Below are positions 6,256 through 16,714 of a stretch of DNA of 54,860 bases, piece after piece. The notes under the pieces are model-generated. The model made no database searches, was not told the origin of the DNA, and saw nothing but the letters and a program-made list of their open reading frames with translations. The position numbers were made by a program, and so were the translations under genes. The stretch comes from Maribacter sp. (GTDB lineage: Bacteria > Bacteroidota > Bacteroidia > Flavobacteriales > Flavobacteriaceae), in contig JBLICT010000001.1 in NCBI GenBank assembly GCA_047632415.1, positions 1 to 54,860 of the forward strand, given 5' to 3'. Each line of letters begins with the position of its first letter. Position 1 is the stretch's first letter.

Positions 6256-7311
6256 ATGTACACCAAAAAAAACTATACCGCTTTTCAAATGGCGTGGTGG
6301 ACCCGTTTTGAAACTTTTCTTTTCATTATAATTATTTCTGTTTGGGTGGCACTCTATCACTTTCTTGATTTAACCTGGTTAAAAATTCCCTGGACACCTT
6401 TGGCCCTAATCGGCACTGCAGTGGCTTTTGTTGTCGGATTTCAGAATAACTCGGCTTATGATAGAATTTGGGAGGCTAGAAAGATATGGGGGGGTATCGT
6501 AAACACATCCCGAACTTTTGGGATGTTCGTTCAGGATATGATTACCAATGAATATGCTGATAAGGCTATGTCAGATGAATTCCTGCAGCAGGAAATGAAA
6601 ACACTTACCTATAGGCACATTGCTTGGATGACCGCACTAAGACGGGCGATGAGAACACCCAAAACTTGGGAAACTGCAGTAAATCATAGAACTAATAAGG
6701 AGTGGGATAACAAGCCGCCAGAATTGAACTCTACTTTGGAGGAGGATATAAAGCATTACATTTCTAAAGAGGACTATTTATATGTTATGAGTAAGGATAA
6801 TAAGCAAACGGCTCTTTTATACTTACAATCCCATCATTTAAAAAAGCTAAAAGAGCAGGGTGTACTTTGGGAATTTTCATTTTTGGAATTGGAGGCTGTG
6901 CTTAAGGACTTATTTACCTTACAGGGACAAAGTGAACGGATAAAGAATTTTCCCTACCCGAGGCAGTTCGCTACCCTAAATCATTTTTTTATGTGGGTAT
7001 TCGTGCTTCTTTTACCCTTGGCACTCGTTCCACAATTTGGGGAAATTGGACTTGAAATCGCGGAACAAAGTCCGCTTATTGGAAAATACTTTGTTTGGGC
7101 AACAATTCCCTTTTATGTTATCGTTGCATGGATATTCCATACCATGGAGCGTATTGGTAGAACAGGTGAAAACCCATTTGAAGGGACAGCTAATGATGTC
7201 CCCATCTCAACCCTTGCAAGAGGTATTGAAATAGACCTGAGACAAAACTTAGGGGAAACCAAAGAAGAGATTCCGGCACAATTCCCTATGAAGTATAACA
7301 CACAGTTTTAA
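6256..7311 (+). CDS. Bestrophin-family (YneE-like) putative anion channel
   Basis: Motifs NNSAYDRIWEARKIWGGIVNTSR, ERIKNFPYP and ENPFEG...DVPI. Confidence 0.88.
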   Translation: MYTKKNYTAFQMAWWTRFETFLFIIIISVWVALYHFLDLTWLKIPWTPLALIGTAVAFVVGFQNNSAYDRIWEARKIWGGIVNTSRTFGMFVQDMITNEYADKAMSDEFLQQEMKTLTYRHIAWMTALRRAMRTPKTWETAVNHRTNKEWDNKPPELNSTLEEDIKHYISKEDYLYVMSKDNKQTALLYLQSHHLKKLKEQGVLWEFSFLELEAVLKDLFTLQGQSERIKNFPYPRQFATLNHFFMWVFVLLLPLALVPQFGEIGLEIAEQSPLIGKYFVWATIPFYVIVAWIFHTMERIGRTGENPFEGTANDVPISTLARGIEIDLRQNLGETKEEIPAQFPMKYNTQF

Positions 7312-7408: not shown

Positions 7409-8464
7409 TTAGGCCACCGTCCCCTGACAACTACTCCCCGCACCGGCGGTACACCCATAGCAATGTTGAGAGACGATGATATTCCTATCGTTAAGTAGAT
7501 CTTCGTTATAATCTTTAATGTGCTTTATCTTACTGGCTACTTTTAAATCTAGCATTTGGTTAAAATCACAATCGTAAAGCCATCCGTCCCAACTTATGGA
7601 GATAGTATTCGTACACATTACGTTCGCTACAGCAGAAGGGTTATAAGCATCTACTAAAGCATACATATAGTCATCATAGTTTTCCGAAGCTATTAAATAA
7701 TCCAAGAAACGAGCTATGGGTAAATTGGTAATGGTAAACAAATTATGGAATTTAATATCAAAATCCTCTTTCAAAGCTTTTTTAAAGTCTTTCTCCATAG
7801 CTGCTTGGTCACCCGGTAAATATGCTCCTGAAGGATTATAAACTAAATCTAAGCGTAAAGAGCTCCCTGGTATCCCGTAGCCTCTTTCGTTAAGTTCTTG
7901 TAAAGCTTTTATCGATTTGTCAAAAACACCTTCTCCTCGTTGCTTATCCGTTTTCCCTCGTGTCCAGTGTGGCATAGAAGAGATAACATGTACATTATGT
8001 TTTTTAAAGAAATCCGGTAAGTGATAGTATTTTTTATTTGCCCTGATTATAGTAAGGTTAGAGCGTACGATAAAGTCTTTGATACCTGCTTCAGCCGCTT
8101 GTTCTACAAACCATTCAAAATCAGGATTCATTTCTGGCGCTCCACCGGTCAAATCTAAGGTATGGGCACCGGTATTTTTAATGACTTCTAAACATTGCGT
8201 CATCGTTTCACGAGTCATGATTTCTTTACGGTCCGGACCGGCATCTACGTGGCAGTGCTCACAGACTTGATTACACATGTATCCTAAATTAAGTTGTAGA
8301 ATCTCCAACTTTTTAGGGCGTAAGGGGAAATGACCTATTTCAGAAATCTTGTCTTTGAAAAAGGGAAGTTCGCCATCGGCAAAGAGGCCTCCGCTTAAAA
8401 TATCGAGTTGCTTATTGCTTTGTGCAAGTTCGTTTCCTTTTGCTTTTAATGATTTTGTAGCCAT
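7409..8464 (-). CDS. arsS: ArsS-type radical SAM / Cys-rich protein (arsenosugar biosynthesis radical SAM family, DUF3641 C-terminus)
   Basis: CNQVCEHCHVDAGP (CxxxCxxC), LDLTGGAPEMNP, LYDCDFNQML and C-terminal HCYGCTAGAGSSCQG. Confidence 0.88.
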   Translation of the reverse strand: MATKSLKAKGNELAQSNKQLDILSGGLFADGELPFFKDKISEIGHFPLRPKKLEILQLNLGYMCNQVCEHCHVDAGPDRKEIMTRETMTQCLEVIKNTGAHTLDLTGGAPEMNPDFEWFVEQAAEAGIKDFIVRSNLTIIRANKKYYHLPDFFKKHNVHVISSMPHWTRGKTDKQRGEGVFDKSIKALQELNERGYGIPGSSLRLDLVYNPSGAYLPGDQAAMEKDFKKALKEDFDIKFHNLFTITNLPIARFLDYLIASENYDDYMYALVDAYNPSAVANVMCTNTISISWDGWLYDCDFNQMLDLKVASKIKHIKDYNEDLLNDRNIIVSQHCYGCTAGAGSSCQGTVA

Positions 8465-8582
8465 TTTTTTTAGTATTGAGTACAACGTAGTGCGTATTTA
8501 AATGTCACTTTAAGGACTCTGTTTATAATCTTATTTCTAAAAGCGCAGCAGTTTTATATCTTAGAGCGCATTGTTTTGTCTA

Positions 8583-9788
8583 TTACATCGACAATTTATC
8601 ATACTTATTCATCATTTGTACCCCATGCACCAAGGTTGCTCCACTTTCAATGGCAGCTCCTACATGCACCGCTTCCATCATCTCTTCTTTGGTAATTCCC
8701 TTTTGCAGACCATCTTTGGTGTAGGCATCAATACAATATGGACATTTAACTACATGGGAAACAGCCAGGGCAATTAAGGATTTCTCCCTTGCACTTAGTG
8801 CGCCTTCTTCGAAAACGGTACTATAATAGTCAAAAAACTTTGTTCCGAGTTCTTCACTCCATTCCGTTATTTTGCCGAATTTTCTTAAATCTTTTGGGTC
8901 GTAATACGAATCTGCCATCTTTTTTTGTGTTTTAAGTGCTATAGTTTCTTTTTGTGAATGGTCTGAGTTGATTGGAATTCCCTGTCCTATTTTTTCCAAT
9001 TCGGGAAGGATTTCCATATTGTCCCAAATACCGGAAGTTAATGTATCTGCATACGATTCAGGTAGGTGGTTTTTAAACATTAGTTGCTGTGCTGTGCTGT
9101 GGTCATACTCAAAAGACCGGTGGGTATAATTTAATTCATCCTGCTGTATTTCCAGTATCATATACCAGACTCTTGTGGTACCGTCATTTGCAGGCATTCC
9201 AATTGCGCCAGGGTTTAGCCAAAGTTTTTCTTTTATGGACTGATGAAAAGGGAGTCCACAATGCCCAGCAATGATTACATCACTTTTGGTTTCTGTAAAG
9301 CACTTTTCTTTGCTACTATTGGCATTAGATTTAAAAACAAATTCTGATGTATTTTTATAATTTCCGTGAACTACCGTAATTTTTTTATCGCCATAATCAA
9401 AACTAATATATTCAGGAACCTCAGAAATCCATTGCAAGGATTCTTTTGATAAATGGCCTTTGGTATAAGGAAACCAAGTCTTTGAAAAGTCATCGCAACG
9501 ACTTCCAGCTTTAAAATCGCAACCGCAATCTTCACTATCGTTGGCCAATTGTAGCTCTACATTACCGGCTATACTCAACGCACCCCATTTACGGAATAGT
9601 TGCACGGTATCTTCAGGTTGGGCACAGTATCCGGTAATATCTCCGGTACAAATACAATTTTCTGGAGCAATGCCTTCGGTGTCAGCAATACCTATTAACT
9701 GCTCCAAAGCCTGCAGATTACTATATACCCCTCCAAAGAGTAATAGCTTTCCGTTTTTGGTTCCGATATGTGTTATCCCTTTATCCAT
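8583..9788 (-). CDS. Metallophosphoesterase fused in frame to an AhpD/CMD peroxidase-like protein of the ArsS-associated family
   Basis: N-domain has GGVYSNLQAL, CTGDITGY, IAGN, VVHG, AGHCGLP and NPGAIG. C-domain starts at MADSYYDPKDL (ATG 8918) and has EKSLIALAV..KCPYCIDAY. No stop lies between them. Confidence 0.8.
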   Translation of the reverse strand: MDKGITHIGTKNGKLLLFGGVYSNLQALEQLIGIADTEGIAPENCICTGDITGYCAQPEDTVQLFRKWGALSIAGNVELQLANDSEDCGCDFKAGSRCDDFSKTWFPYTKGHLSKESLQWISEVPEYISFDYGDKKITVVHGNYKNTSEFVFKSNANSSKEKCFTETKSDVIIAGHCGLPFHQSIKEKLWLNPGAIGMPANDGTTRVWYMILEIQQDELNYTHRSFEYDHSTAQQLMFKNHLPESYADTLTSGIWDNMEILPELEKIGQGIPINSDHSQKETIALKTQKKMADSYYDPKDLRKFGKITEWSEELGTKFFDYYSTVFEEGALSAREKSLIALAVSHVVKCPYCIDAYTKDGLQKGITKEEMMEAVHVGAAIESGATLVHGVQMMNKYDKLSM

Positions 9789-11113
9789 TTGGGTATAAAA
9801 TAGAGTGTGATACAACTTAAAATCCCCCAGAAATTAATCCAAAGTAAATCCGCATATTTTCCTGTGGTGAAAATTAATCCTTGTGGGAACCAGCTGAAAA
9901 TAAGCAAAAATCCGAATAAAATCCCACAAAAAACACTTAGGTGAAAACTTATCTTAGGTGCTTTGTCTTTCCAAAATAGAAAAATGGGTGTTAAGCCGAT
10001 GACCATAGTTCCGCTTATGGTAGTTGCCGATAGTATTTCCGCATTCAAAAAAACAGGGATGGTCCCTAGCGCGGCAATTAAAACCATGGACCAACGTCCG
10101 AATTTAAGTGAATTCCCCAATTTTAAATCGATTGCCAATAGCTTGGAAAAAGAGGAAAATGTGGAGTCTAAGGTAGATGCAGCCGAGGTTATCATAATAA
10201 AATTGACAACTAATAAAATGACGATTCCAAATGCCTTGCCCACTTCCACAGCGGCTTGCCCTTGCATTCCCTGCGATTGTGCATATACCCCAACAATACT
10301 GAAAAGTATAATGCATAAAGCACCAAGTATACTTGCCCAGAGGAAGCTTTTTAGTGTGATTTTTGGACTGCTTAGAAAACCTCTGTCCGTAAGTACTGGG
10401 TCATGGAACGGATAACTAAATGATTGCAGAACAGCTGCAAAAAGCAAGTTTAAGCCCATATCAAAGGACCAGACTCCAGAGCTAACAGCATTTTCAGGCG
10501 TAAAACTGTTTTCAGAATTAAAAATGGCACCTAGTATAATTAATAAAAGAATTGAGAACAATCCCATTTGTAGAACATCCGTAAATATGGAACTGCTCAT
10601 TCCGCCCTTAAGCACATAGGCTAACGTAAGTGCTGTGAACACCAAGATGGACCAGTAATACGAACTAGACCCTATATCCCCAAAATAGGTACCAATAACC
10701 ATTGTATTGCTCCAAACCTCATTAAATAATCGGATAGCGATGAGAATAGAGAAAACGGCCACCGCTCCTTTGCCAAACTTAGACGTAAGAAAATGATGAA
10801 TGCTTGTGTATTTACCATACAGGCGCATTTTATAAATAACCACACCGGCAACAGCAAATGAAACGTAATATCCTGCATACGCAACGCCGCCTACAATACC
10901 ATAGTCTAATCCTAGATTTGCAGCATTAGTAATGCTCTTGGCAAAGATCCAAGAGATGATTAAACTGCCCATGAGCATAAAGGTATTTGGGGTTTTCTTC
11001 TTTTCAACTGCCTTAAAAAATTGATTGGTATTTTTTGCCCATGGAGAAAGCAGAAACAACACCAAACTAGATGTAATTACTAACCCCCATTGCCATAAAT
11101 TAACCTCAATCAT
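9773..11113 (-). CDS. Sodium:solute symporter family transporter
   Basis: About 13 TM segments, with YVLKGGMSSSIFTDVLQ and SAASTLDS motifs. Its stop overlaps the next start. Confidence 0.85.
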   Translation of the reverse strand: MIEVNLWQWGLVITSSLVLFLLSPWAKNTNQFFKAVEKKKTPNTFMLMGSLIISWIFAKSITNAANLGLDYGIVGGVAYAGYYVSFAVAGVVIYKMRLYGKYTSIHHFLTSKFGKGAVAVFSILIAIRLFNEVWSNTMVIGTYFGDIGSSSYYWSILVFTALTLAYVLKGGMSSSIFTDVLQMGLFSILLLIILGAIFNSENSFTPENAVSSGVWSFDMGLNLLFAAVLQSFSYPFHDPVLTDRGFLSSPKITLKSFLWASILGALCIILFSIVGVYAQSQGMQGQAAVEVGKAFGIVILLVVNFIMITSAASTLDSTFSSFSKLLAIDLKLGNSLKFGRWSMVLIAALGTIPVFLNAEILSATTISGTMVIGLTPIFLFWKDKAPKISFHLSVFCGILFGFLLIFSWFPQGLIFTTGKYADLLWINFWGILSCITLYFIPKWIKG

Positions 11114-11150
11114 ATTTATAATTTCAATATTCGATTTCAACCTTAATACT

Positions 11151-12752
11151 TTAATTCTCGCTTTGCGAGTCCCACCAAACCGCTACATTAATACTATTCC
11201 CATCTGTTTTACTTGCAGCTGCTTCATAATTCGCAGCATTTAATGCCTCTTCTTCAGCGGGATATGGCATACGAACTGGTATTAAATTATCGTTTAAACT
11301 CGCTGAAATGGTTTTTAATTGTGGAAAGCCTGTTCTTCTGAATTCTACCCAACCTTCGTATCCGTTTATGATATTAGAAATCCACTTCTGAGTGATAATG
11401 TTTTCCAAAGAATCGCCATTGGTATAGGCGCCCGTTCTTACAAGATAGTCTGCCGGAAGCGCTACTTGCCAATAGTCAAAAGCTTGTGTTACTCCAATAT
11501 TGTAAAGGGCTTGTGCATCTGCTGTAATGAACCCTTTCTGTGCTGCCTCAGCTAACAGAAAGTGTGTTTCCATACTAGTCATGAAATTAGCATCTAAGAC
11601 GCTTGTGTTTTCACGGAAAATTGTGCCTGCTAAAGAATAATCAGATAGGACAGCAGCGTTTTGCGTGGCATCGATTCCGTTTAAAAGACCGTTGAATTCA
11701 CCAGTAGTACTATTGTTAAAAGGTTGAAACAATTTTGAGATGCGTTCGTCGTTCAAATCCGTTAAGATGTCCTCCATGGTTTCGGAGAGCACAAAGTTGT
11801 TAAAATCTCCAATGCGTAACCGCGCTAATCTAAAATTATTAGGCTCTCCATCCATAAAATCAAAAATGGCGTTTTCAGGATTCTCATCAATAAAGTTTCC
11901 TTCTGTAACTATAGCTTGCAGTTGTGAAGAAACATCCATTTTATCCGAAATTCGAATCAGATGCTTTATCCGAAGGGAATTTGCAAAGCGAATCCATCCC
12001 TGTAAATCCCCTTCAAAAAGAATATCCCCTTCCAAAGTAATACTCCCACTATAATTTTTGATTGCAGCGATTCCTTTCTCTAAGTTGTCTAAAATTCCAC
12101 CTTCATCTGTATAAATAGACTTTTGTGTATCATAAACAGGAGTTACCGTAACGCTATTTCCTTTAAAAGCTTCTGAGTAGGGTACATCTCCAAACAAATC
12201 TGTTAATCCTGCACTCATATAAGCTTTAAGAATACGAGCTGGTCCTTCATAAACCGCAAAGGTTTCGTTTTCCTGAGATAGGTTTAAAATGATTTCGTTG
12301 TCCCTTAGGTTTTTATAAAAAATAGGCCAAGGATTGCCACCTAATTGTGGCGACTTTAAATTATGTCTATCAAAAAGATTGAAATCCAGTGCTGTGGTAT
12401 ATTGACCCAATAAGTTCCCAGCAGTAAATCCTTCAAAGGACATTTGTTCTCCATAATCATAGATAACCTGCCGTAATAACAGACTTGGTTGTATAGTTAC
12501 AGGTGAATTGGGGTTGGTGTTTATTTTCTCGAAGTCTTGGGTACAGGAAGAGAATAATAATAGAACAACAGAAATTCTTACTAACAAGAAAACCTCCCTC
12601 AGTCCCTCCTTCTTAGAAGGGAGGCTAGAACGCATTCTTTTCCCCTCTAAAAAGAGGACGGCCCAATGATAATTGTGGGCGAGATTAAGCGTTGGCAAGG
12701 ATGCGTAGATTTTAAGTAAAAATGTAATTAGTATGCTATATAATTTTTTCAT
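11151..12752 (-). CDS. SusD/RagB-family outer-membrane lipoprotein (starch-binding-like subfamily) with an unusually long N-terminus
   Basis: Lipobox LLLFSSC then TQDFEKINTNPN. Motifs LTDLFGDVPYSEA, IITQKW, EFRRTGFP and WWD. Directly downstream of SusC. Confidence 0.9.
   Translation of the reverse strand: MKKLYSILITFLLKIYASLPTLNLAHNYHWAVLFLEGKRMRSSLPSKKEGLREVFLLVRISVVLLLFSSCTQDFEKINTNPNSPVTIQPSLLLRQVIYDYGEQMSFEGFTAGNLLGQYTTALDFNLFDRHNLKSPQLGGNPWPIFYKNLRDNEIILNLSQENETFAVYEGPARILKAYMSAGLTDLFGDVPYSEAFKGNSVTVTPVYDTQKSIYTDEGGILDNLEKGIAAIKNYSGSITLEGDILFEGDLQGWIRFANSLRIKHLIRISDKMDVSSQLQAIVTEGNFIDENPENAIFDFMDGEPNNFRLARLRIGDFNNFVLSETMEDILTDLNDERISKLFQPFNNSTTGEFNGLLNGIDATQNAAVLSDYSLAGTIFRENTSVLDANFMTSMETHFLLAEAAQKGFITADAQALYNIGVTQAFDYWQVALPADYLVRTGAYTNGDSLENIITQKWISNIINGYEGWVEFRRTGFPQLKTISASLNDNLIPVRMPYPAEEEALNAANYEAAASKTDGNSINVAVWWDSQSEN
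12590..12686. repeat. GC-rich multi-hairpin (REP/RPE-like) element inside the SusD signal-peptide coding region
   Basis: Stems CCTTCT-T-AGAAGG, CCTCT-AAAA-AGAGG and GCCCA-N10-TGGGC in an otherwise AT-rich 5' region. Translated as ...SSLPSKKEGLREV. Confidence 0.55.
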
Positions 12753-12763
12753 CTCTTTCTCTC

Positions 12764-15700
12764 TTAAAAATTAAACCCTGCTTTAAAACCAAAACTACGG
12801 GTGGTTGCATAGGACATGTCTTCTACACCACTAACAAAACCTTGCCCTTGAACCGCTAATTGCTCAGGGTCAAAATGTGGATTCTCTGTAATGGCGAACA
12901 AGTTTCTTCCGATTACCGATAAACTCAGGCTGGCATCTTGCTTGAATAAGCTGAGGTTGTCAAAGGTATAACCGATAGAGAACTGCCTAAGTTTAAGGAA
13001 AGACGCATCATAAGTGTTGTTCTCCTCATGGTTTCGGTCATAAAACTGTCGGTAATAGCTTTCGGCTGATACAGCAACGGTATTTTCTGTGAAAACTGGA
13101 TTTGCCGCTGTTCCTATATTTACAACTCCTTCTGGGACTATGCCAGCCTCAGGTCTAAATGAGGTTTCGGCCAGTTGTCCGCCAACATTTCCTAAGGCTC
13201 TTGTACGGGAAACGACTATTCCGCCTTGCCGCCAATCTAAGAGAAAACCAAGATTCCAGTTTTTAAAGGCAAACTGGTTATTGAATCCTAACATAAAATC
13301 TGGATTGTAATTGCCTAATTTTTGGAGGTTGTTATCTGGAATGTATCGACCTTCATCGGTTAGAATAAAATCACCGGTATCATTTTTTAAGTACCCTGTT
13401 CCGTAAAGGTCTCCAACACGGCCACCTTCTTCAACTTGTAAAAATACCGTTTGGTTTTGACTGTCGTATATTCTAGAATAGGCTAATGTTAGTCGACCTT
13501 CATCTTGGGGTAAATCTTCTACTGTAGCCCTGCTTGTACTGAAATTAAGCGTACTATTCCATTGAAAATTTTCTGAAATTACTGGAGAGATACCTGCTAT
13601 GATTTCCAAGCCTTTTGCTCGTACTTTTCCGCCATTTACAACTTGTTGTGTAAAGCCAGATGAGATGCCTATTGGAAGTGAAATAATTTGATCTTCCGTA
13701 ACGGCATTATAGTAAGAGATATCAAAACGTAATTGATCACTGAAAAAACGTAAATCAGCACCAACTTCAAAAGAAGAAGTGGTTTCTGGTCTTAGATTAG
13801 GGTTCGCAATCTTGTTTTGATTACTAAAGGTAGGTTGACCATTAAATGGCGTTTGTGCAACAAAGGCACCTGTGGTTTGATATGGATTGGTATCGTTTCC
13901 TACTTGTGCCCAACTTGCTCTAAGCTTTGCAAAAGAAAATGCTTGCGGCAATTCAACGACTTCAGATAAAATAAAACTGCTGGAAAAAGAAGGATAGAAA
14001 AACGAGGTGTTATCCACTGAAAATGGTATTGCTAAAGCACTTGACCAGTCGTTTCTTCCTGTGAGATCCAAAAATAGAAAATTTTTGTACCCAAACTTGG
14101 CCAAGCCATAGAAGCTGTTGATACGTTTATTAGATTCAAATTCGAACACTTCAATTGGTGATGCGCCATTAGAAAGGCGAAAAATACCTGGCTGCGCTAG
14201 GCTTGTAGTCTGTGATTGTGAAGTAAATGCTTTTTGGCCCAATCTATTTCCACCTATAGAAACATCAATCTTAAAATCATTAAACTGATTGGTATAATTT
14301 AAAAGAAAGTCGGTGTTTATTTCCCTAAAAAATACATCATGTTCCGCATATCCACCATTCTGAAAACGATTGGAACTAAACGCACGACGTAGTTGGCGTA
14401 ATTCGCTGGAGTAATCCATGCCAGAACGTATGGTTGCCGTTAAATGATCGGTAATATCATAACTAGCCGATATATTTCCAAAAACACGGTCCCGGTTAAA
14501 AGAGTTACGGTTCTCATTCAGCATAAAGAAGGGGTTATCAAAAAAAGTATAGTTATAAGAATACTGTTGCACGCCTTCTAGACCAGGTTGCCAATAATCT
14601 CTAAGACTATCTATGTTCAAAGAACGTGGCCCCCATGCTACCAAGGAATAGTTTACGTTCTCTGAACCATACCCGTTGGATGGACGGTTAGCACTTTGTG
14701 AATTCACATAACTGATAGAAGAATTGATGCTTAGTTTATCTGTAGGCATAAAACCTAAACGGGAACTAATTGTCTGTCGGTCTAGATTTACCCCTGGAAT
14801 AATAGATTCACTTCGTAAATCTGTAAACGAGAGCCGATAATTTCCTTTTTCAAATCCGTTGGAAATAGCAATATTATTTATGAGCGTTGTTCCAGTATTA
14901 TAAAAATCCTTCAAATTATCAGGATTGGAACGAAACTCTGTTGGTGCAATAGGTAATCCACGATATAATGCTGTATCGCCACCACGGACTATAGTGCCAT
15001 CCGTTAGGGTAACGGGGCTATCAAATTGAGAAATTAAATTCCCAGCATTTAAGCGAGGTCCCCAGCTGTAGGTAATGTTATCACTGGTTCCGCCACCAAG
15101 ACCGTCTACATATTCGAACACTCCAGATTGTCCTTGTCCGTATTCATTTTGAAAATTGGGAAGGCGAAAAGCAGAATCCACAAAAAAGCTTGTGTTGTAA
15201 CTAATACCAATTCCTTTTGAGTTTTTACCACTTTTGGTCGCGATAACGATAACGCCATTAGAGGCACGGGTTCCGTATAATGCTGCGGCACTAGGTCCTT
15301 TTAAAACAGACACTGCCGCTATATCATCAGGATTTACCTCCATGGCCCCGTTTCCAAAATCTATTGCTTGAAAACCGGCAGCAGCCTCATTGGTAAAGTT
15401 GAAGACGGAATTATTGTTTATAGGAACACCATCTACTATGAATAAAGGATTATTGTTAGAAAAAGAAGCTTCTCCTCGGATGGTAATCTTAGATGATGAA
15501 CCCACTCCCGTAGCCCCTTGGTTGATGGTTACACCTGCTAATTTTCCCGTAAGGTTATCGAGAAAATTAACTGCTTTCACTTCAGTTACTCCTTTAGCAT
15601 CCAGACTTTGCACCACATAGCCTAATTCCTTGGTCTCTCTCTTTAGACCTAGTGCCGTTAGGACAACTTCATTTAATTGCTCGGAAGATTCCAATAAGGT

Positions 15701-15967
15701 TACATCTGCAACAGATGCACCATTAATAGGAATGTTTTGTGTTTCATAACCGAGCACGGAAAATTTCAAAGTACCTTTTAAATCAGTAACGCCAAGATTA
15801 TATTGCCCCTCTTCGTTTGATATAGTTCCCTTATTCGTGCCGGTTAATTGTACGTTTACATATGGGATTGATGTTCCGACTGCATCGGTGATGGTTCCCG
15901 AAACGGTTTCTTGCGCAGTTATAATAGTTGCCATGAAGAAAGTCATGGCTAACAATAAATACTTCAT
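12764..15967 (-). CDS. SusC/RagA-family TonB-dependent outer-membrane transporter
   Basis: Signal peptide, CarboxypepD-like N-domain, LNEVVLTALG, PLFIVDGVP, SVLKGPSAAALYGTRASNGVIVIATK and C-terminal Phe. Confidence 0.95.
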   Translation of the reverse strand: MKYLLLAMTFFMATIITAQETVSGTITDAVGTSIPYVNVQLTGTNKGTISNEEGQYNLGVTDLKGTLKFSVLGYETQNIPINGASVADVTLLESSEQLNEVVLTALGLKRETKELGYVVQSLDAKGVTEVKAVNFLDNLTGKLAGVTINQGATGVGSSSKITIRGEASFSNNNPLFIVDGVPINNNSVFNFTNEAAAGFQAIDFGNGAMEVNPDDIAAVSVLKGPSAAALYGTRASNGVIVIATKSGKNSKGIGISYNTSFFVDSAFRLPNFQNEYGQGQSGVFEYVDGLGGGTSDNITYSWGPRLNAGNLISQFDSPVTLTDGTIVRGGDTALYRGLPIAPTEFRSNPDNLKDFYNTGTTLINNIAISNGFEKGNYRLSFTDLRSESIIPGVNLDRQTISSRLGFMPTDKLSINSSISYVNSQSANRPSNGYGSENVNYSLVAWGPRSLNIDSLRDYWQPGLEGVQQYSYNYTFFDNPFFMLNENRNSFNRDRVFGNISASYDITDHLTATIRSGMDYSSELRQLRRAFSSNRFQNGGYAEHDVFFREINTDFLLNYTNQFNDFKIDVSIGGNRLGQKAFTSQSQTTSLAQPGIFRLSNGASPIEVFEFESNKRINSFYGLAKFGYKNFLFLDLTGRNDWSSALAIPFSVDNTSFFYPSFSSSFILSEVVELPQAFSFAKLRASWAQVGNDTNPYQTTGAFVAQTPFNGQPTFSNQNKIANPNLRPETTSSFEVGADLRFFSDQLRFDISYYNAVTEDQIISLPIGISSGFTQQVVNGGKVRAKGLEIIAGISPVISENFQWNSTLNFSTSRATVEDLPQDEGRLTLAYSRIYDSQNQTVFLQVEEGGRVGDLYGTGYLKNDTGDFILTDEGRYIPDNNLQKLGNYNPDFMLGFNNQFAFKNWNLGFLLDWRQGGIVVSRTRALGNVGGQLAETSFRPEAGIVPEGVVNIGTAANPVFTENTVAVSAESYYRQFYDRNHEENNTYDASFLKLRQFSIGYTFDNLSLFKQDASLSLSVIGRNLFAITENPHFDPEQLAVQGQGFVSGVEDMSYATTRSFGFKAGFNF

Positions 15968-16024
15968 TTAATAGTATAGAAGGAGTTAGTACTTTAGATG
16001 GATTTACCCATCGTTTCAATAAAA

Positions 16025-16714
16025 CTAAGAATGAACTAGTACAGGGGAACCTTTGTTAAAAGGTTGCTGAAGAAAAGTTGCGGAGAATAGAGAAATTTCA
16101 ATGGTTTGAAACGCCTTTTCTAACTGTAAAAGTAACATCAAAATCTGTAGTACAGTTGATGAAATGGAATTCTTAAAATAAGCAAGACGTTTTACATCTT
16201 TGATAGTATCTATATCACTTAGAACAGGTAAATGATAAAGAAGGCTATCGGTTTGCTCTAAAAGTGAAGAAATCCTATTGAATAGGCTAAAACGTTGCCA
16301 TGGTAATCTCTTAAAAATTTCTTTATCAAAATTGGATTTATGGATGCCCATTAAGTAAAATCCACCATCTAAAGACGGACCTAAAACCGTTTCCCCAGCT
16401 TCTAGAGCGGCTTTGGTTTTCAGTAGGTGTGTGGTTTTTAGTTGAGGTGTATCGTTGCCAATGGTAATGATATTTTCAAAACCTTCTTCAAAAACCGTTT
16501 GTATTGCGTTTGTAAAACGCTCCCCAAAGGAGTTTCCCGTTTGTTCCTTTTCTGAAATATGAAAACAAGGGAGCCCTGTTTTTTTTGCCTTCTGAAGTGT
16601 TTCTTGTGTAAGTGTTTGAAACAAAACTTCCCCGTTTGGTATAGGCTTATGTGACAACTCCTCAGTAGCGGAATTGGCAAAGACCAAAATAGCGGTTTTG
16701 TGCAAAGAATTCAA
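16025..16714 (-). CDS. DUF2064 / CofC-like glycosyltransferase-like protein (family associated with ArsS-type radical SAM clusters)
   Basis: Motifs QTGNSFGERF, IGNDTPQL, VLGPSLDGGFYLMG, LPWQ and DIDT. TTG start. Confidence 0.8.
   Translation of the reverse strand: MNSLHKTAILVFANSATEELSHKPIPNGEVLFQTLTQETLQKAKKTGLPCFHISEKEQTGNSFGERFTNAIQTVFEEGFENIITIGNDTPQLKTTHLLKTKAALEAGETVLGPSLDGGFYLMGIHKSNFDKEIFKRLPWQRFSLFNRISSLLEQTDSLLYHLPVLSDIDTIKDVKRLAYFKNSISSTVLQILMLLLQLEKAFQTIEISLFSATFLQQPFNKGSPVLVHS

What the first reader, a model, noticed from the sequence alone, without database searches (positions are those of the whole stretch)
7409..16714. PUL-like import operon built around an ArsS-type radical SAM enzyme: candidate organoarsenical (arsenosugar) uptake/processing system
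Seen: six tightly packed co-oriented genes, namely DUF2064/CofC-like, SusC, SusD, Na+:solute symporter, metallophosphoesterase-AhpD fusion and radical SAM (CxxxCxxC plus C-terminal CYGCTAGAGSSC). There are no glycoside hydrolases, and no arsM, arsR, arsC or acr3/arsB in the window. Known: cyanobacterial ArsS adenosylates dimethylarsenite in arsenosugar biosynthesis and works with ArsM. AhpD-like and CofC-like genes are recurrent ArsS neighbours, and SusCD pairs import specific solutes. Inference: a two-membrane import chain feeding ArsS without a local methyltransferase suggests scavenging of pre-methylated arsenic or algal arsenosugars for remodelling. It could instead handle an unknown nucleoside-like metabolite. 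I know of no characterised SusCD for such substrates.
Basis: partly seen in the sequence, partly recalled or inferred. Interest (0 to 1): 0.82.

Follow-up and report, generated by a model that had tools for sequence, protein, structure and literature searches.

The report
Arsenic-scavenging importer with stalling leader
A marine flavobacterium that lacks the arsenic-methylating gene arsM carries a two-membrane importer, an arsenate-reductase-like protein and the arsenosugar enzyme ArsS in one operon, so it likely scavenges already-methylated arsenic on purpose, and the operon's first gene is predicted to be a ribosome-stalling switch.

Summary
All six genes are real. ArsS and the AhpD-like domain pass their NCBIfam cut-offs. 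The module sits only in arsS genomes in a one-per-genus family survey (23 of 201). ArsM is missing in 11 of these 23 but in only 8 of 135 other arsS genomes, and this genome's arsM slot is cleanly empty. The phosphoesterase keeps the Cys pair of ars-operon (Car1-type) arsenate reductases, has lost part of its metal site and gained a third Cys. Best reading: it imports dimethylarsinate or a near equivalent, reduces it, and hands DMA(III) to ArsS. (1) The first gene is not the CofC-like enzyme: it is a degenerate DUF2064 ending in NKGSP at a fixed distance, and its homologues end in the arrest motifs RAPP/RGPP, so it is likely a ribosome-stalling leader. (2) A sister SusCD, with an ABC importer, nucleoside hydrolase-like and methylthioribose-kinase-like genes, occupies the same slot in genomes lacking ArsS, which suggests interchangeable supply routes into one pathway. 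No substrate is shown.

The parts
16025..16714 (-). Degenerate DUF2064 protein (229 aa), predicted ligand-sensing ribosome-arrest leader of the operon; lacks the N-terminal RNPELGKxKTRL loop of TIGR04282
16043..16057 (-). NKGSP motif (residues 220-224); K221 lies 54 residues after the DxD motif; same position as RAPP/RGPP in homologues
12764..15967 (-). SusC/RagA TonB-dependent transporter (1067 aa); groups with ABC/hydrolase-linked and phosphonate/phosphoester-locus SusCs
11151..12752 (-). SusD lipoprotein (533 aa; conserved Cys70; N-terminal extension holding a palindromic repeat)
9773..11140 (-). Sodium:solute symporter-fold permease (likely start 11113)
8919..9788 (-). Metallophosphoesterase-fold domain with a degenerate first metal site (GGVYSN, GNVE) and Cys88/Cys90/Cys98; predicted As(V)-type reductase
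9495..9527 (-). Codons for C88-G-C90...C98; C88/C90 align with C74/C76 of ars-operon phosphoesterase-type proteins
   Evidence: Car1 numbering from PMC12124457 passage
8583..8918 (-). AhpD-like TIGR04169 domain (CPYC), fused in frame to the phosphoesterase
7409..8485 (-). Radical SAM enzyme ArsS (TIGR04167 over cut-off; likely start 8464)

Best explanation
The operon is likely an optional salvage front end of the arsenosugar pathway that imports a pre-methylated arsenical (most likely dimethylarsinate, DMA(V)), would reduce it to DMA(III) and would feed it to ArsS. Steps: (1) SusC/SusD would concentrate the scarce solute across the outer membrane and the symporter would carry it into the cytoplasm (families shown, cargo inferred). 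(2) The phosphoesterase-fold domain would reduce As(V) through its Cys88/Cys90/Cys98 cluster, recycled by the fused AhpD-like CPYC domain (homology and motifs shown, chemistry inferred). (3) ArsS adenosylates DMA(III) to DDMAA (known for the cyanobacterial enzyme; family membership shown here). (4) The unlinked C31 genes (purine nucleoside phosphorylase, TIGR04282, TIGR04283, DUF547) would turn DDMAA into an arsenoriboside or arsenolipid (inferred). (5) The first gene likely acts as a CruR-like upstream ORF: a degenerate DUF2064 domain senses a pathway product as it leaves the ribosome and releases or holds a stall at NKGSP, which sets expression of susC onward (anatomy shown, function inferred).
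For: Linkage: the symporter is found in 23 of 201 family genomes, all with arsS over cut-off. 61 of 65 loci of 15 kb or more hold arsS. ArsM-like genes are missing in 11 of 23 module genomes versus 8 of 135 other arsS genomes (Fisher p 2e-6; 8 of 19 vs 5 of 116 among genomes at least 90% complete, absences rechecked). The losses are scattered over the module tree. In 35 named module genomes, 20 have no NF038099 match, 13 are intact, 1 is split and 1 has only a weak match. In this genome PNP abuts GT2 (33 bp gap) where 10 of 10 relatives examined have ArsM. The phosphoesterase is 29% identical to a protein flanked by arsM and acr3; 12 of 16 such distant proteins carry CGC, 9 of them at positions 74/76, the positions reported essential in the reductase Car1. 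All 104 module copies keep three Cys and GNVE. Other importers occur in the same cluster: PiT or Pst phosphate-type transporters next to arsM, and TonB receptor plus ABC in an ArsM-less genome. Leader: of 201 distinct DUF2064-type proteins, 101 end in N[KR]GSP, 34 in RAPP/RGPP, 56 canonical ones have neither and 10 are unclassified; DxD-to-motif spacing is 53-55 in 101 of 101 while the distal linker is 17% identical; synonymous codons are all used.
Against: No ligand, transport, induction or product data exist. 12 of 23 module genomes keep an ArsM-like gene, so the module does not replace it outright. 8 arsS genomes lack both ArsM and this module; one of them has a different importer and no importer was seen beside arsS in the others examined. 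Synechococcus elongatus has ArsS but no ArsM over either cut-off (controls). One Aquimarina genome has the module with neither ArsS nor ArsM found. Related genomes are not independent, so the p-values overstate. The symporter fold is not substrate-specific: SGLT, CHT1 and SiaT match equally. The changed metal site means the Car1 activity cannot be assumed. For the leader: Arg is irreplaceable in ApcA/ApdA/ApdP mutagenesis and most known TonB-linked RAPP leaders have signal peptides (PMC12992588); KGSP is not obviously depleted in this proteome (7 occurrences in 830,260 aa).
Confidence: 0.55

Rival explanations
1. The importer takes up intact algal arsenosugars or lyso-arsenolipids, which are broken down to DMA or remodelled; ArsS is used for re-synthesis.
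For: SusCD pairs usually carry larger solutes (general knowledge). The nearest SusCD clade is tied to nucleoside hydrolase-like and methylthioribose-kinase-like genes. ArsM loss fits equally well. Arsenosugar phospholipids dominate surface-ocean arsenolipids (bioRxiv 10.1101/2021.03.22.436501, passages).
Against: This clade has no hydrolase or kinase and nearly always keeps ArsS (23 of 23; one exception). The hydrolase/kinase clade occurs in three genomes without ArsS.
Confidence: 0.18
2. The module imports inorganic arsenate and reduces it to arsenite for ArsM or an unrecognised methyltransferase.
For: The closest characterised relative of the phosphoesterase is an arsenate reductase. 12 of 23 module genomes keep ArsM. 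A distant locus pairs the symporter with a phosphate-selective porin family gene.
Against: Half or more of module genomes have no ArsM, so arsenite could not reach ArsS by the known route. The first metal site differs from the ars-operon type in 103 of 104 copies. Phosphate-type transporters already fill this role in ArsM-bearing clusters.
Confidence: 0.1
3. The flavobacterial cluster works on a non-arsenic analogue (a phosphonate, phosphinate, selenium or sulfur species), and the module imports that.
For: Sister SusCDs lie in phosphonate-catabolism loci (PbfA, PhnX-like, HpnW). ArsS occurs in 158 of 201 genomes, which is very common for a trace-arsenic function. ArsS activity is shown only for a cyanobacterial enzyme.
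Against: The cluster methyltransferase passes the arsenosugar ArsM model (578 bits, cut-off 400) and is present with arsS in 139 of 158 genomes when all ArsM-like matches are counted. The phosphoesterase's relatives sit in arsM/acr3 operons.
Confidence: 0.15

Closest known systems
Cyanobacterial arsenosugar pathway (Synechocystis ArsM + radical SAM ArsS; NCBIfam TIGR04167, TIGR04169, TIGR04282, TIGR04283, NF038099)
   Same: ArsS and AhpD-like domain over cut-off; TIGR04282 and TIGR04283 elsewhere in the genome. ArsS makes DDMAA from DMA(III) (review passages, PMC13598754; ArsM partnership, PMC8552651).
   Different: No ArsM; a two-membrane importer, a reductase-like domain and a leader are added; heterotrophic host.
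Car1, metallophosphoesterase-fold arsenate reductase of Rufibacter tibetensis (Shen et al. 2024; seen only through the citing passages of PMC12124457)
   Same: Same fold family; Cys pair at the aligned position after GN.
   Different: About 29% identity to ars-operon homologues; DxH becomes GxY, GN[YH]D becomes GNVE, a third Cys is added, it is often fused to AhpD, and it sits in an import operon rather than a resistance operon.
CruR/DUF2946 copper-sensing upstream ORF of Bordetella (PMC9426467) and RAPP arrest peptides (PMC12992588)
   Same: First gene of a TonB-transporter operon; C-terminal arrest-type motif a few residues from the stop; fixed spacing between a sensor-like motif and the arrest motif (54 here, 45 intervening residues in CruR).
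   Different: The sensor is a whole degenerate enzyme domain without an obvious signal peptide; the flavobacterial motif is NKGSP, not RAPP; ligand unknown.
Polysaccharide utilisation loci (SusC/SusD)
   Same: SusC/SusD pair followed by an inner-membrane transporter.
   Different: No carbohydrate-active enzymes; best solved SusC match is BT2264; nearest paralogues lie in phosphonate/phosphoester and riboside-salvage-like loci.

Membership tests
ArsS (TIGR04167) | HMM score over curated cut-off; CxxxCxxC and C-terminal Cys cluster | tested here: met
   434 bits vs 300; 8 of 9 Cys invariant in 40 sequences
ArsS (TIGR04167) | Adenosylation of DMA(III) to DDMAA | not testable with these tools
   Needs in vitro assay
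Canonical arsenosugar biosynthesis cassette | ArsM in the genome | tested here: not met
   Best NF038099 score 23 bits; slot on C31 empty; genome 79.7% complete
Canonical arsenosugar biosynthesis cassette | TIGR04169, TIGR04282, TIGR04283 present | tested here: met
   (the last two on contig C31)
TIGR04282 CofC-like enzyme (for gene 16025-16714) | Score over cut-off and N-terminal RNPELGKxKTRL loop | tested here: not met
   98.9 vs 134 bits; loop absent
Car1-type arsenate reductase | Phosphoesterase fold with Cys74/Cys76 | tested here: met
   Fold; C88/C90 align to C74/C76 of ars-operon homologues
Car1-type arsenate reductase | Canonical DxH/GNxD metal ligands as in ars-operon homologues | tested here: not met
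   GGVYSN and GNVE in the module clade; compared with homologues, not Car1 itself
Car1-type arsenate reductase | As(V) reductase activity | not testable with these tools
   Needs assay
RAPP-type arrest peptide / CruR-like uORF | Literal RAPP/RGPP near the C-terminus | tested here: not met
   The window's protein has NKGSP; 34 homologues have RAPP/RGPP
RAPP-type arrest peptide / CruR-like uORF | First gene upstream of a transporter, fixed sensor-to-motif spacing, variable linker | tested here: met
   90 of 97 motif-bearing copies directly before susC; spacing 53-55 in 101 of 101
RAPP-type arrest peptide / CruR-like uORF | Ribosome stalling and ligand-dependent control | not testable with these tools
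   Needs toeprinting and reporter assays
Polysaccharide utilisation locus | SusC/SusD pair | tested here: met
Polysaccharide utilisation locus | Linked carbohydrate-active enzymes | tested here: not met
   None in the operon or among conserved neighbours in 20 orthologous loci

The most novel reading that the evidence does not exclude
Many aquatic Bacteroidota treat organoarsenic like a vitamin. A conserved downstream cassette builds an arsenoriboside or arsenolipid, and three interchangeable front ends supply it: de novo synthesis (phosphate-type transporter, ArsM, ArsS), dimethylarsinate salvage (SusCD, symporter, Cys-reductase, ArsS; this locus) and arsenoriboside salvage (SusCD or TonB receptor, YnjB-type ABC, hydrolase, kinase; no ArsS). 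All are throttled by a dead pathway enzyme reused as a product-sensing ribosome-arrest leader, with NKGSP as a new stalling motif.
Probability: 0.3. Interest if true: 0.92.

Novelty: new variant of a known kind. Interest (0 to 1): 0.74.

Why it matters
Known arsenic transport genes mostly expel arsenic or admit it by accident. A dedicated, regulated importer would mean common marine heterotrophs seek methylated arsenic. It would give a sink for seawater dimethylarsinate and a candidate bacterial source for the ether-type arsenolipids seen in surface oceans. Natural ArsM-less cultured strains make the test direct. The leader would add a metabolite-sensing enzyme-domain class of arrest peptides and possibly a new stalling motif. 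The sister module points to functions for the YnjB-type ABC family and for unassigned late steps of arsenosugar synthesis.

Tried and rejected
Promoter and terminator scan: 26 and 8 sites, equal to shuffles (27.4, 8.9); uninformative. Expression: no RNA holder listed. AhpD-ArsS complex prediction gave no verdict. The primary ArsS-pathway and Car1 papers were not held, so both are cited through other papers' passages, and their supplements may bear on residue roles. A homologue search with the Roseivirga-type leader found only itself. The Atlas returned only unnamed phosphoesterase clusters for a stored homologue. Symporter specificity: the best sequence match is a choline-transporter-family protein (E 9.6e-9), but the fold search does not separate families, so I draw no substrate from it. 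SusD matches to solved structures are generic. Rejected: assembly gap as the reason for missing ArsM (slot contiguous on C31); fusion as a sequencing error; horizontal island signal (GC 0.38-0.39, like the flanks); first gene as catalytic CofC-like enzyme. Literature searches listed no paper on this importer or leader; 'DUF2064' occurs in 0 papers; one search was swamped by unrelated matches and most subscription papers are not in the library.
Full report
Observation. The six minus-strand genes are present as described. ArsS, the AhpD-like domain and SusC pass curated cut-offs; SusD and the symporter match Pfam; the DUF2064 gene falls below the TIGR04282 cut-off. The closest symporter relatives (up to 94% identical) are in Maribacter records, so the host is likely a Maribacter-type flavobacterium. 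GC content matches the flanks.

The rest of the pathway. The genome (79.7% complete) has a second cluster on contig C31: rhodanese, TIGR04282, purine nucleoside phosphorylase, TIGR04283, with DUF547 nearby. No ArsM was found by two family models, a protein query or tblastn. In 10 of 10 relatives examined that have this split layout and an ArsM, it lies directly after the phosphorylase. Here the phosphorylase and TIGR04283 are 33 bp apart, so the gene was lost, not missed. The cluster methyltransferase scores 578 bits on NF038099, arsenosugar ArsM.

Distribution. In 201 family genomes, one per genus plus this one, arsS passes the cut-off in 158. An ArsM-like gene is found in 144 and the symporter in 23. 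SusD orthologues at 64-76% identity occur in 21 besides this one. In 20 SusD loci fetched, DUF2064, SusC, SusD, symporter and phosphoesterase are present together in all 20 and arsS in 19. All 23 symporter genomes have arsS. ArsM-like genes are absent in 11 of 23, against 8 of 135 other arsS genomes (lists copied; the 19 absences were rechecked). Kin are not independent, but the ArsM-less genomes are scattered over a tree of the module. Of 35 named module genomes chosen from the 80 loci, 20 have no NF038099 match. The module also occurs in four other families, all with arsS in the genome, two without ArsM. Against this: 12 of 23 keep ArsM, one Aquimarina genome has the module with no ArsS or ArsM found, and Synechococcus elongatus has ArsS without an ArsM over cut-off (controls).

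The phosphoesterase. Its predicted fold is that of SapH/PH1004-type phosphoesterases. Its more distant Bacteroidota relatives sit beside acr3 and arsM. PMC12124457 (passages read) reports that such a protein, Car1, is an As(V) reductase needing Cys74 and Cys76. Nine of 16 distant relatives aligned have CGC at exactly 74/76, three more have it with shifted starts, and four lack it; the window's Cys88/Cys90 align with it. All 104 distinct module copies keep this pair plus a third Cys, and replace the DxH and GN[YH]D motifs with GxY and GNVE. I infer a reductase whose pocket has fewer oxygen ligands, as would suit a methylated As(V). That step is inference. The fusion to the CPYC domain (56 of 104) suggests a redox relay.

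The first gene. It lacks the N-terminal loop of TIGR04282 and has a tail ending NKGSP. Among 201 distinct DUF2064-type proteins collected, 101 end in N[KR]GSP, 34 in RAPP or RGPP, 56 canonical ones have no such motif and 10 were unclassified. The distance from the DxD motif is 53-55 residues in 101 of 101, and 51-55 in the 18 of 34 RAPP/RGPP copies where the pattern matched, while the distal linker is only 17% identical. Codons vary synonymously. 90 of 97 motif-bearing copies stand directly before susC; others precede ahpD-arsS, other TonB receptors or ABC importers. This is the anatomy of CruR, a RAPP leader with fixed spacing ahead of a TonB transporter (PMC9426467, passages). The caution is that Arg was irreplaceable in three tested arrest peptides (PMC12992588, passages), so NKGSP stalling is untested. 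I put the leader reading at about 0.75 for the family and 0.6 for NKGSP itself.

Interchangeable front ends. Following one ArsM-less genome without the symporter led to a TonB receptor plus ABC importer behind the same leader. Its binding protein family is PRK11622 (I recall this as E. coli YnjB). Homologues occur in 5 of 201 family genomes and 80 metagenome loci, 45 of 91 loci clustered carrying a DUF2064-type gene. In four family genomes it follows the second-tier SusD (39-40% identity) and precedes a nucleoside hydrolase-like gene and, in three, a methylthioribose-kinase-like gene (both below cut-off). Three of these four lack ArsS and ArsM yet keep TIGR04282, TIGR04283-like and the phosphorylase, and two place the module at the same chromosomal slot as this window's operon. 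A hydrolase plus kinase would give the same ribose-1-phosphate that the phosphorylase would make from DDMAA (inference by analogy with methylthioadenosine salvage). In ArsM-bearing clusters, PiT-type (four loci) or Pst-type (one locus) transporters follow arsM. A SusC tree groups the window's clade, the ABC/hydrolase clade and a phosphonate/phosphoester-locus clade together (SH-aLRT 99) apart from six other SusCs; the background is small and has long branches.

Mechanism. The cargo should lie downstream of ArsM, since ArsM is often lost, and upstream of ArsS, since ArsS is kept. DMA fits, and a reductase is needed because ArsS uses DMA(III) (review passage). I give this 0.55; intact arsenosugar 0.18; a non-arsenic analogue 0.15; arsenate 0.10.

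Novelty. The pathway core is known; ten literature searches listed no description of the importer or leader (see Tried and rejected). The scan noted the importer-ArsS block three times on other genomes; look-ups for the leader returned nothing. Verdict: new variant of a known kind, interest 0.74.

Noticed in passing
window 12585-12665 (-): The SusD N-terminus carries an in-frame extension holding a palindromic element; a 30-50 bp part recurs on at least five other contigs. Different extensions occur in close relatives, so it looks like a coding repeat insertion.
   Followed up: partly
L202/L297 (G083), L287-L290, L207-L286: Leader + TonB receptor or SusCD + PRK11622-family ABC importer + an unassigned radical SAM enzyme, often with nucleoside hydrolase-like and methylthioribose-kinase-like genes; a widespread uncharacterised system worth its own study.
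   Followed up: partly
L288:8407-9690: The binding protein belongs to PRK11622. From memory this is E. coli YnjB, whose operon also has an AhpD-like gene and a rhodanese, as the arsS clusters do. The paper search listed four general E. coli studies, none with 'arsen'.
   Followed up: partly
L172 (G459): A distant genome pairs the same symporter and a phosphoesterase with a phosphate-selective porin family gene, a DUF2064 ending LPPP and a different radical SAM enzyme below the ArsS cut-off.
   Followed up: partly
L293, L294, L296: SusCD paralogues at 37-38% SusD identity lie with HpnW, PhnX-like, DUF5690 and PbfA genes: candidate TonB-dependent phosphonate importers.
   Followed up: partly
L098:13819-14786: arsM directly after arsS is split into two ORFs in one Maribacter genome, possibly a loss in progress.
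   Followed up: no
L333:7226-11164, L334:5701-9647: Stand-alone leaders (RGPP, KGSP) sit upstream of about 1050-aa probable TonB receptors with no arsenosugar gene nearby.
   Followed up: no
L335:5014-6000: A methylthioribose-kinase-like gene directly follows arsS at the window's chromosomal slot, tying the kinase to the pathway.
   Followed up: partly
L173, L177, L181, L182: Some ars operons hold two tandem phosphoesterase paralogues, one with and one without the CGC motif.
   Followed up: no
G000 contig C29:5226-7979: A second TIGR04283-like gene (178.5 bits, just under cut-off) lies between a DUF547-like gene and a gene that looks glyoxalase-like by eye.
   Followed up: no
window 6256-7311 (+): A bestrophin-family gene converges on arsS at a position where other Maribacter loci have arsM or other genes; neighbours vary.
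   Followed up: no
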